Source of the DNA: Escherichia coli
Lineage (GTDB): Bacteria > Pseudomonadota > Gammaproteobacteria > Enterobacterales > Enterobacteriaceae
DNA length: 64,000 bases
Direction: 5' to 3' (one strand)
Assembly (NCBI RefSeq): GCF_041886205.1
Contig: NZ_CP169029.1
In this document: positions 44,511 to 45,195 of the stretch, one piece after another
Layout of the letters: every line of letters starts with the position of its first letter
Numbering within the stretch: position 1 is the stretch's first letter
The notes under the pieces: model-generated
The model's input: only the letters and a program-made list of their open reading frames with translations
Databases searched by the model: none
What the model was told of the DNA's origin: nothing
Translations under genes and position numbers: made by a program

Positions 44511-44534
44511 AAATAATACCGTTCTCTTTATAAA

Positions 44535-44579
44535 GTAAAACCCCCGAACTGGTAAGGAACGGGGGTTTTACTTTATTTT
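44535..44579 (+). terminator. Rho-independent terminator after acpS
   Basis: gtaaaaccccc...gggggttttac hairpin then tttatttt. Confidence 0.65.
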
Positions 44580-44921
44580 GTGCAGCACGCACCCTCAATG
44601 AGGATAATTATGGATCAGTGTGGTTATCTTTTACAAGCAACTTGCAATCTTTAGTATAAAAACTCGAGCCTTGACGAAGAAATCGATATTGATGGCAAGA
44701 TTAACGTGACCGCCAATTCATAAGTACATTAAAATTGGCTTCGTTATTAGAGATTTTGCTGTGCTTTACACCATGCCACTGAATTCCCCCATTGAAACGA
44801 GTGGTGTCGTCAAAGCTCTGGTGTGGAGTGCAGCATGTACCCTCAATAACTCGCACGTTCAGTTTTGGGGAGATGTAAGGGCTAATCTGAACGGCTGCAT
44901 TCCTTGTTTAAGGAAAAACGA

Positions 44922-45002
44922 ATGACTGATTGCCGATACCTGATTAAACGGGTCATCAAAATCATCATTGCTGTTTTACAGCTGATCCTTCTGTTCTTAT
45001 AA
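44922..45002 (+). CDS. shoB: Type I toxin small hydrophobic peptide ShoB (26 aa), MTDCRYLIKRVIKIIIAVLQLILLFL
   Basis: Manual translation; RBS aaggaaaaacgaATG; below ORF-track cut-off; lies in the long acpS-yfhL intergenic region. Confidence 0.8.
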   Translation: MTDCRYLIKRVIKIIIAVLQLILLFL

Positions 45003-45195
45003 CACAAGGAAACGTACTTAAGGTGCGTCCGGTGAACCAGTCGGACGCGCCTTTAATAACTATAAATAAGTGTCTGGGCAGATACTATATAAATTAACTT
45101 AGTGAATGATTATGCCAATGTCATCAATCAAAAAAATATAATAGCGTTAAGGTTTCTCTATAAAATAATTAACACTCTACATCCAGAGTAGAATA

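What the first reader, a model, noticed from the sequence alone, without database searches (positions are those of the whole stretch)
44511..45195. Unannotated type I toxin gene shoB (and probably its antisense sRNA ohsC) in the long acpS-yfhL intergenic region
The 685-bp gap has no ORF above the track cut-off, yet contains a 26-codon frame with a good RBS encoding a highly hydrophobic peptide (MTDCRYLIKRVIKIIIAVLQLILLFL), recognisable as the ShoB membrane toxin. In the described system a divergently transcribed sRNA (OhsC) base-pairs with the shoB 5' UTR; I expect it on the minus strand upstream of 44922 but cannot place its ends from sequence alone. The acpS terminator hairpin (44535..44579) is followed by several hundred bp that presumably hold the long shoB leader.
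Basis: partly seen in the sequence, partly recalled or inferred. Interest (0 to 1): 0.4.

Follow-up and report, generated by a model that had tools for sequence, protein, structure and literature searches.

The report
Known E. coli shoB/ohsC toxin-antitoxin locus
The gap between acpS and yfhL holds the well-known E. coli ShoB membrane-toxin gene and its small antisense RNA OhsC, here as a rare but apparently intact allele, so the finding is correct and ordinary.

Summary
A 26-codon frame at 44922..45002 (+) encodes MTDCRYLIKRVIKIIIAVLQLILLFL. Its DNA is identical to K-12 shoB (b4687), and RefSeq annotates it as ShoB in identical records. The antitoxin gene ohsC is also present, at about 44530..44599 (-); Rfam RF02495 scores 73.4 bits against a threshold of 50.

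- The "acpS terminator hairpin" is a bidirectional terminator that forms the 3' half of OhsC.
- The next ~140 bp are the divergent ohsC/shoB promoters, not leader. The leader is about 180 nt (44742..44921).

OhsC nt 1-20 pair with 44828..44847 of the leader (18 Watson-Crick + 2 G.U, -36.5 kcal/mol; shuffled seeds about -17). An anti-SD hairpin masks the RBS.

The window carries a rare allele (13-14 of about 5,400 genomes). It has a 9-nt deletion in the OhsC linker and two wobble-generating changes, and pairing is kept.

Side result: E. coli has two allele classes (about 68% and 32%). They differ at 7 of 20 positions in both pairing elements in concert, and predicted cross-class pairing falls to background.

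Verdict: already known, low interest.

The parts
44532..44574 (.). Bidirectional intrinsic terminator hairpin (arms AAAGTAAAACCCCCG / CGGGGGTTTTACTTT, 13-nt loop). It serves acpS on the + strand and forms the 3' stem-loop of OhsC on the - strand.
   Evidence: Sequence. It is the 15-bp stem of Rfam RF02495 and folds as the dominant stem of OhsC. T-rich tails follow it on both strands. The + strand also gives a weaker RF02495 hit because of the near-palindrome, as noted in PMC11264685.
44530..44599 (-). ohsC gene: a 70-nt OhsC antitoxin sRNA (79 nt in K-12). Nt 1-20 (44599..44580) are the seed that pairs with the shoB leader. This allele lacks 9 nt of the linker between seed and terminator.
   Evidence: Rfam RF02495, 73.4 bits (gathering score 50), E=3.9e-11. 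The K-12 ncRNA b4608 maps here. Ends are inferred from K-12 and not mapped in this strain (+/-3 nt).
44607..44636 (-). ohsC sigma-70 promoter: -35 TTGTAA (44636..44631), 18-nt spacer, -10 CATAAT (44612..44607).
   Evidence: Consensus scan. The hexamers are identical to those tabulated for ohsC in PMC11264685 Table 2.
44706..44735 (+). shoB sigma-70 promoter: -35 GTGACC (44706-44711), 18-nt spacer, -10 TAAAAT (44730-44735). Inferred start near 44742.
   Evidence: Consensus scan. Same hexamers as PMC11264685 Table 2. The start is inferred from spacing and gives a ~320-nt mRNA, matching the published size (PMC5668327).
44742..44921 (+). shoB 5' untranslated leader (about 180 nt).
   Evidence: Inferred from the promoter position and the published ~320-nt full-length transcript. 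Nearly invariant between alleles outside the OhsC target.
44828..44847 (+). OhsC target site in the shoB leader (GTGCAGCATGTACCCTCAAT), 75-94 nt upstream of the start codon. On the + strand it is a direct repeat of 44580..44599.
   Evidence: 20 contiguous pairs with OhsC nt 1-20: 18 Watson-Crick + 2 G.U, -36.5 kcal/mol. Shuffled seeds give -17.4 +/- 2.6. The literature reports 19 nt of complementarity at the OhsC 5' end (PMC3919570).
44900..44915 (+). Anti-SD hairpin UUCCUU-GUUU-AAGGAA that sequesters the shoB ribosome-binding site.
   Evidence: MFE folds of both alleles. P(unpaired) of the SD is 0.11 in the ~320-nt form and 0.45-0.96 in 5'-truncated forms. Prediction only.
44922..45002 (+). 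shoB coding sequence: 26-aa hydrophobic type I toxin, plus stop codon.
   Evidence: Identical to K-12 b4687. RefSeq WP_000128776.1 sits at the same coordinates in identical records.
45020..45056 (+). shoB intrinsic terminator (13-bp G+C-rich stem AAGGTGCGTCCGG / TCGGACGCGCCTT, 8-nt loop, short U tract).
   Evidence: Sequence and MFE fold. Its position gives the ~320-nt transcript length.

Best explanation
This is the chromosomal shoB/ohsC type I toxin-antitoxin locus of E. coli, in its normal place between acpS and yfhL.

**Toxin side.** shoB is transcribed rightwards from the promoter at 44706-44735 as a ~320-nt mRNA. Its ~180-nt leader keeps the ribosome-binding site closed in an anti-SD hairpin. 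Published work shows that only a 5'-processed ~280-nt form is translated. ShoB is a 26-residue hydrophobic peptide that depolarises the inner membrane when over-made.

**Antitoxin side.** ohsC is transcribed leftwards from 44636-44607 and ends at the terminator it shares with acpS. The first 20 nt of OhsC pair with leader positions 44828-44847, far upstream of the RBS. This represses ShoB synthesis. The most likely route is occupation of a ribosome-loading (standby) region, as IstR-1 does on tisB, with the duplex cleaved by RNase III.

**What is shown here:** identity of the genes, promoters, terminators, the duplex and its preservation across natural alleles.
**From the literature:** toxicity, repression by OhsC, transcript sizes, and RNase III cleavage in the duplex region.
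**Inferred:** the standby-site mechanism, and the transcript ends in this strain.

The window's copy is a rare allele with a 9-nt shorter OhsC linker, two G.U wobbles in the duplex, and a different sequence between the ohsC -10 and +1. It looks functional.
For: - The CDS is identical to K-12 shoB, and the locus is syntenic: era-recO-pdxJ-acpS | shoB | yfhL-yfhH.
- RefSeq annotates shoB at these coordinates.
- The locus is present in 5,425 of 5,426 complete E. coli genomes, never on plasmids.
- Rfam ohsC_RNA scores 73.4 bits against a gathering score of 50.
- Both promoters match the published hexamers.
- The seed-target duplex is 20 contiguous pairs at -36.5 kcal/mol, against -17.4 +/- 2.6 for shuffled seeds.
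- All 13 natural alleles examined that carry both elements keep at least 17 Watson-Crick pairs. These include two classes that differ at 7 of 20 positions in both elements in concert.
- Predicted SD masking in the full-length RNA is relieved in 5'-truncated forms, which agrees with the published active ~280-nt form (PMC5668327).
- Toxicity, depolarisation and rescue by OhsC are reported in PMC5668327, citing Fozo 2008.
- The 19-nt 5'-end complementarity is reported in PMC3919570.
- RNase III cleavage in the putative duplex is reported in PMC6212723.
Against: - No expression data exist for this strain, so transcript ends are transferred from K-12.
- The primary paper (Fozo 2008, PMC2597788) and Kawano 2005 were not in the held library. 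Experimental facts are therefore cited second-hand.
- The way OhsC blocks translation has never been established for shoB. Reviews say standby-site occlusion is only one possibility (PMC4147584).
- The predicted accessibility of the target is moderate (0.3-0.4) and does not change with 5' truncation, so folding does not discriminate between mechanisms.
- The 9-nt linker deletion removes the outer stem of the Rfam model's 5' helix. Its effect on OhsC stability is unknown.
- No Pfam or NCBIfam HMM exists for ShoB, so membership rests on sequence identity rather than a profile.
Confidence: 0.95

Rival explanations
1. OhsC represses shoB through a leader ORF, as Sok does through mok for hok. The 54-codon frame 44761..44925 (ATG at 44773) contains the OhsC target, and its TGA overlaps the shoB ATG (ATGA). 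ShoB translation would then be coupled to leader translation, and OhsC would block the leader ORF.
For: The frame is open in all 10 aligned alleles, and its stop overlaps the shoB start. [quoted passage not shown]
Against: - No Shine-Dalgarno sequence precedes either the GTG at 44761 or the ATG at 44773.
- The class-1 to class-2 change rewrites three consecutive residues non-conservatively (CTL to LDS) while preserving RNA pairing.
- The other substitutions are 3 nonsynonymous and 3 synonymous, which is uninformative.
- A 54-codon open frame has a chance probability of about 0.075 per frame (my estimate).
- There is no family match above threshold.
- If processing removes ~40 nt, the 5' end of the active form would be near 44782. 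That is my estimate from the published ~320 and ~280-nt sizes, and it would remove both candidate start codons.
Confidence: 0.04
2. In this rare allele the antitoxin is impaired. The 9-nt linker deletion, the two G.U wobbles and the altered sequence between the ohsC -10 and +1 lower OhsC level or efficacy, so the locus is partly de-repressed or decaying.
For: - The allele is rare: 13-14 genomes at >=99% identity out of about 5,400.
- The duplex is 2.7 kcal/mol weaker than in K-12.
- The outer stem of the Rfam 5' helix is deleted.
- The 8 nt between -10 and +1 differ from every other allele class sampled.
Against: - Both promoter hexamers, the terminator, the seed register and 20 contiguous pairs are intact.
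- The duplex is still stronger than the common class-2 duplex (-36.5 vs -32.0).
- The toxin CDS, RBS and leader are unchanged, with no sign of decay.
- The same OhsC form occurs in an independent recombinant background, strain 18KM2445.
Confidence: 0.08
3. The hairpin at 44532..44574 is only the acpS terminator, the Rfam hit is driven by that generic terminator, and no sRNA is made here.
For: The + strand also matches RF02495 weakly (34.9 bits) because the hairpin is near-palindromic. Most of the 73.4 bits come from the 15-bp stem.
Against: - The minus-strand hit also aligns the seed hairpin and exceeds the gathering score by 23 bits, whereas the plus-strand hit falls below it.
- A matching promoter sits at the right distance.
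- The 20-nt seed is complementary to the shoB leader and co-varies with it across alleles. An acpS terminator alone would not explain that.
- K-12 annotates the homologous interval as ohsC.
Confidence: 0.01

Closest known systems
shoB/ohsC (formerly ryfB/ryfC) type I toxin-antitoxin locus of E. coli K-12 (b4687 / b4608)
   Same: Same genomic position, identical toxin CDS, same promoters, same terminators, same divergent arrangement, and the same 5'-seed-to-leader pairing register.
   Different: - OhsC is 70 nt rather than 79 nt, through a 9-nt deletion in the linker.
- The OhsC +1 base is A instead of G.
- One base change in the seed and one in the target turn two Watson-Crick pairs into G.U.
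- The 8 nt between the ohsC -10 and +1 are replaced.
- The intergenic region is about 94% identical overall.
O157:H7-type (class 2) shoB/ohsC alleles, about one third of E. coli
   Same: Same toxin, same architecture, same leader outside the target.
   Different: A 7-of-20 block substitution occurs in both seed and target, with the ohsC -35 as TTGTAC. The predicted duplex between window OhsC and a class-2 target is only -20.3 kcal/mol, and the reverse combination gives -16.0, both near background.
tisB/istR-1, zorO/orzO and dinQ/agrB (divergently encoded type I systems)
   Same: The sRNA is divergent from the toxin gene. A short (18-21 nt) 5'-end seed pairs far upstream of the RBS in a long leader. 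The primary transcript is inert and a 5'-processed form is active. RNase III cleaves the duplex (PMC3919570, PMC4147584, PMC5668327, PMC6212723).
   Different: The toxin sequences are unrelated. For shoB the standby site and the processing site have not been mapped, so the shared mechanism is an analogy and has not been demonstrated.
hok/sok (mok leader-ORF coupling)
   Same: A small membrane toxin is repressed by an antisense RNA that does not cover the toxin RBS. An upstream frame overlaps the toxin start.
   Different: Sok is cis-encoded antisense with long complementarity. Here the upstream frame lacks an SD and is not conserved at the protein level, so there is no evidence of coupling.

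Membership tests
ShoB/OhsC type I toxin-antitoxin system | 26-aa hydrophobic ShoB peptide | tested here: met
   The peptide is MTDCRYLIKRVIKIIIAVLQLILLFL. The CDS is identical to K-12 b4687 and corresponds to RefSeq WP_000128776.1 in identical records.
ShoB/OhsC type I toxin-antitoxin system | Chromosomal position between acpS and yfhL | tested here: met
   The gene order era-recO-pdxJ-acpS-shoB-yfhL-yfhH is the same as in K-12.
ShoB/OhsC type I toxin-antitoxin system | Divergently transcribed OhsC sRNA matching Rfam RF02495 | tested here: met
   73.4 bits against a gathering score of 50, at 44532..44596 (-). The 5' outer stem of the model is deleted in this allele.
ShoB/OhsC type I toxin-antitoxin system | About 19 nt of complementarity between the OhsC 5' end and the shoB 5' UTR, upstream of the RBS | tested here: met
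   20 contiguous pairs (18 Watson-Crick + 2 G.U), -36.5 kcal/mol, with the target 75-94 nt upstream of the ATG. Shuffled control.
ShoB/OhsC type I toxin-antitoxin system | Published promoter hexamers and RBS (shoB GTGACC/TAAAAT, ohsC TTGTAA/CATAAT, RBS AAGGAA) | tested here: met
   compared with PMC11264685 Table 2.
ShoB/OhsC type I toxin-antitoxin system | Transcripts of ~320/280 nt (shoB) and a short OhsC RNA | not testable with these tools
   The lengths predicted from promoter to terminator (about 315-320 nt and 70 nt) are consistent with PMC5668327. No RNA data are available for this strain.
ShoB/OhsC type I toxin-antitoxin system | ShoB overproduction is toxic and depolarises the membrane; OhsC rescues | not testable with these tools
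   This is known for the identical K-12 peptide (PMC5668327 citing Fozo 2008). It was not tested for the window's OhsC allele.
Standby-site-controlled type I toxins (tisB/istR-1 type) | The antitoxin competes with ribosome loading at a single-stranded standby site in the 5'-processed mRNA | tested here: inconclusive
   In predicted folds the SD opens on 5' truncation (0.11 to 0.45-0.96). Target accessibility stays at 0.27-0.39 throughout. The literature calls the mechanism unresolved.
Leader-ORF-coupled type I toxins (hok/mok/sok type) | A translated upstream ORF overlaps the toxin start and is the antisense target | tested here: inconclusive
   The frame 44761..44925 overlaps the ATG and contains the target. 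It has no SD, its protein sequence is not conserved between classes, and it has no family hit. This leans towards not met.

The most novel reading that the evidence does not exclude
E. coli maintains two mutually non-cross-reacting specificity classes of shoB/ohsC: K-12-like (about 68% of genomes) and O157-like (about 32%). They were created by a concerted 7-nt block change in two direct repeats 248 bp apart, the ohsC seed and the shoB leader target. The cause is probably intralocus gene conversion plus selection for pairing. The window's rare allele would be a third, shortened OhsC variant within the K-12-like class.

The variability of the pairing region has been reported. The authors of PMC11264685 stated that it could not yet be said whether pairing remains sufficient. 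The data here suggest that it does, and that the antitoxins would not protect across classes.
Probability: 0.5. Interest if true: 0.3.

Novelty: already known. Interest (0 to 1): 0.1.

Why it matters
For the scan it matters mainly as a calibration point. A tool-less reader correctly recognised a 26-codon toxin gene that ORF-length cut-offs miss, and correctly predicted its antisense partner. Biologically the locus is a described type I toxin-antitoxin pair that has been discussed in connection with persistence and indirectly implicated in colistin survival.

Two things here go slightly beyond the literature I could read:
- The natural variation in the pairing region is concerted and preserves the duplex in every allele sampled.
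- This strain carries a rare, shortened OhsC. It would be a convenient natural variant for testing which parts of OhsC are needed.

Tried and rejected
- **Full-length duplex prediction.** RNAduplex on full-length OhsC against the full shoB mRNA gave an over-extended, physically meaningless duplex because intramolecular structure is ignored. I replaced it with seed-only calculations.
- **Coordinate errors, corrected.** The first per-allele pairing table used target coordinates off by one and gave nonsense pair counts; one search corrects it. The SD coordinates were off by 2 nt; one search corrects them.
- **Profile searches.** Pfam and NCBIfam searches with ShoB found nothing. No profile exists for this peptide, so membership rests on sequence identity. 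The 54-aa upstream frame gave only sub-threshold noise (Phage_spike_2 at 18.8 bits against a cut-off of 25).
- **Terminator scan.** The consensus scan found no terminators, because both real hairpins have loops or tails outside its rules. I identified them by sequence and folding instead.
- **Species scan.** The genome-contig scan with a degenerate IKRVIKIII pattern returned 36 chance hits in AT-rich MAGs and only two Escherichia loci. This supports a narrow distribution. It would miss homologues with substitutions in that motif, such as the V11I variant seen in strain CT265.
- **Primary papers.** Fozo 2008 and Kawano 2005 were not available.
- **Leader-ORF model.** I considered the hok/mok-like model and set it aside (see rival explanations).
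- **CpxR boxes.** I did not try to place the CpxR boxes CB1 and CB2, because their sequences appear only in figures that are not held.

Full report
**Observation.** The window region 44511..45195 lies between the stop codon of acpS (TAA 44508-44510) and the stop codon of yfhL (minus strand, CDS from 45196). It holds no ORF of 60 aa or more.

This is not a chance ORF. Megablast of the 685 bp against 5,426 complete E. coli genomes finds it in 5,425, always chromosomal and essentially single-copy. The feature annotated under the match is "shoB: type I toxin-antitoxin system toxin ShoB". In a 100%-identical record (strain CX12) the RefSeq CDS (WP_000128776.1) maps to exactly 44922..45002, and the neighbours are era-recO-pdxJ-acpS and yfhL-yfhH. 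Aligned with K-12 MG1655, the CDS, its RBS and nearly all of the leader are identical.

**The antitoxin.** Rfam's ohsC_RNA model (RF02495) hits 44532..44596 on the minus strand with 73.4 bits against a gathering score of 50. It is the only family above threshold in this spacer in a whole-window scan. K-12 annotates ohsC (b4608, 79 nt) in the homologous interval, and transferring its ends through the alignment gives 44530..44599 (-).

It is the 15-bp terminator stem of OhsC. It is nearly palindromic and has T-rich tails on both strands, so it most likely terminates acpS as well; the weaker plus-strand Rfam hit is an echo of the palindrome. The hairpin therefore belongs to the toxin-antitoxin locus. 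OhsC is not somewhere in the "several hundred bp" after the hairpin, because it includes the hairpin.

**Promoters, leader, terminator.** The consensus scan finds -35 TTGTAA / -10 CATAAT on the minus strand at 44636..44607, and -35 GTGACC / -10 TAAAAT on the plus strand at 44706..44735. These are exactly the hexamers tabulated for ohsC and shoB in a 2,000-genome conservation study (PMC11264685). So 44600..44741 is a divergent promoter region and not leader.

A start about 7 nt after the shoB -10 (about 44742), together with the G+C-rich hairpin at 45020..45053, gives a transcript of roughly 315-320 nt. This matches the published ~320-nt full-length shoB mRNA (PMC5668327, citing Fozo 2008). The leader is thus about 180 nt.

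**Pairing.** On the plus strand, 44580..44599 (GTGCAGCACGCACCCTCAAT) and 44828..44847 (GTGCAGCATGTACCCTCAAT) are direct repeats. Because ohsC is read from the other strand, OhsC nt 1-20 are complementary to the leader 75-94 nt upstream of the ATG. In this allele the duplex has 20 contiguous pairs (18 Watson-Crick and 2 G.U) at -36.5 kcal/mol. K-12 has 19 Watson-Crick pairs and 1 G.U at -39.2. Shuffled seeds against the same mRNA give -17.4 +/- 2.6. This agrees with the published "19 nt of complementarity" at the OhsC 5' end (PMC3919570) and with RNase III cleavage detected in vivo in the putative duplex (PMC6212723).

**How it most likely works.**
- Known from the literature: ShoB over-production is toxic and depolarises the membrane. 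OhsC abolishes that toxicity. Only a 5'-processed ~280-nt mRNA is translated.
- Shown here in silico: the RBS is closed by a local anti-SD hairpin, UUCCUU-GUUU-AAGGAA at 44900..44915. The predicted probability that the SD is unpaired rises from 0.11 in the full-length RNA to 0.45-0.96 when 30-50 nt are removed from the 5' end. This is consistent with activation by processing.
- Inferred: OhsC binds too far upstream to mask the RBS. The favoured mechanism, by analogy with IstR-1/tisB and OrzO/zorO, is competition with ribosome loading at an upstream standby region, followed by RNase III cleavage. This has not been demonstrated for shoB, and my folding results do not discriminate, since target accessibility stays at 0.27-0.39 in all forms.

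A Sok/mok-like alternative exists on paper. A 54-codon frame (44761..44925) contains the target, and its TGA overlaps the shoB ATG. However, it lacks an SD, three consecutive residues are rewritten non-conservatively between allele classes while RNA pairing is kept, and it matches no family. I give it about 4%.

**What is particular to this window.** The allele is rare. Only 13 genomes are >=99% identical over the whole spacer, and 14 over the regulatory core; most genomes are about 94% or about 91% identical. Relative to K-12:
- OhsC lacks 9 nt (TTAACTTTA on the plus strand) of the linker between seed and terminator. That makes it 70 nt and removes the outer stem of the Rfam 5' helix.
- The seed has A-to-G at nt 12 and the target has C-to-U. 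Each converts a Watson-Crick pair to G.U.
- The +1 base is A rather than G, which turns the terminal G.U into A-U.
- The 8 nt between the ohsC -10 and +1 are replaced (TGAGGATA against CAACAGCG).

Every functional element is intact, and the duplex is stronger than that of the common O157-type allele. I therefore regard the locus as functional, with about 8% for an impaired antitoxin.

**Side result: two concerted allele classes.** I aligned ten alleles and added three more that carry both elements. They fall into a K-12-like class and an O157-like class. The two classes differ at 7 of 20 positions in the ohsC seed and at 7 of 20 in the shoB target, and 6 of the 7 changes are identical in both copies. 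The rest of the leader differs at 4/86 and 1/74 positions, and the CDS at 0/81 (Fisher p = 1e-9).

Cognate class-2 duplexes keep 17-18 Watson-Crick pairs, with one U.U mismatch, at -30 to -32 kcal/mol. Cross-class duplexes fall to -16 to -20, which is the shuffled background. Over the regulatory core, 3,665 genomes fall at >=90% identity to the window and 1,705 at 80-90%. In an evenly spaced sample of 60 rows, every member of the second group loses the alignment exactly where the target block begins, and no mixed haplotype appears. The 68:32 split matches the published 66.8:33.1 split of the ohsC -35 variants.

[quoted passage not shown] The present data suggest pairing is preserved by concerted change, plausibly gene conversion between the direct repeats plus selection. 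This is a modest addition to a known system, and it rests on 13 sequences plus BLAST statistics rather than an exhaustive tabulation.

**Distribution.** A degenerate-pattern scan of one genome per species (about 100,000 species) found the ShoB IKRVIKIII motif only in the E. coli representative and in Escherichia sp. MOD1-EC7003. The other 36 hits are chance matches in AT-rich MAGs. This fits the published statement that ShoB is confined mainly to E. coli and Shigella (PMC2887945). The pattern would miss variants in that motif.

**Verdict.** The finding is an already-known system, and interest is low.

Noticed in passing
window 44580..44599 and 44828..44847; loci L041-L044, L048 (class 2) vs L002, L010, L039, L046, L047, L050 (class 1): E. 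coli shoB/ohsC alleles fall into two classes that differ at 7 of 20 positions in both the OhsC seed and its leader target, with 6 of the 7 changes identical in both. The surrounding leader is almost invariant. Predicted cross-class pairing drops to background. The split is about 3,665 to 1,705 genomes.
   Followed up: partly
window 44593..44607: The 8 nt between the ohsC -10 and the inferred +1 (TGAGGATA on the + strand) differ from every other allele class sampled. Together with the seed they create a small palindrome, CCTCA-A-TGAGG, straddling the start site. The effect on OhsC initiation is unknown.
   Followed up: no
window 44761..44925 (+): A 54-codon frame in the shoB leader contains the OhsC target and ends in a TGA that overlaps the shoB ATG (ATGA). 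It is open in all 10 aligned alleles. It has no SD, and its protein sequence is not conserved between classes (CTL to LDS). It is probably non-coding.
   Followed up: partly
L049 (strain 2017.10.01CC) 1628..2400; hits H7, H10-H12, H65: IS1 elements have inserted into this spacer in several strains. In 2017.10.01CC the IS1 replaces the shoB promoter, leader and CDS and leaves an ohsC-only locus, like the antitoxin-only strains mentioned in PMC11264685. EC96 (H65) matched only 26% of the spacer, with an IS1B transposase under the match, and may be similar; I did not inspect it.
   Followed up: partly
window 45060..45195: The AT-rich stretch between the shoB terminator and the yfhL stop is hypervariable between strains. 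It is largely rewritten in SW4848 and WP3-W18, and 76 bp are deleted in Escherichia sp. MOD1-EC7003. It carries promoter-like hexamers on both strands and a small hairpin (TCTAC-N7-GTAGA, 45177..45193), likely the yfhL terminator. No Rfam match.
   Followed up: no
L042 (SW4848) and L044 (CT265) shoB CDS: Rare ShoB protein variants exist: C4Y in SW4848 (WP_000133227.1) and V11I in CT265 (WP_000128775.1). All other sampled alleles are identical at the protein level.
   Followed up: no
window 7452..7577, 10883..11021, 14019..19029, 30781..30823, 37290..38121, 40905..41119, 53797..53944: The whole-window Rfam scan shows the expected E. coli context: Phe leader, RyfD, an rrn operon (16S, tRNA, 23S, 5S), ES036, AsrC (antisense to rseC), rncO and GlmY. 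All are above gathering score.
   Followed up: no
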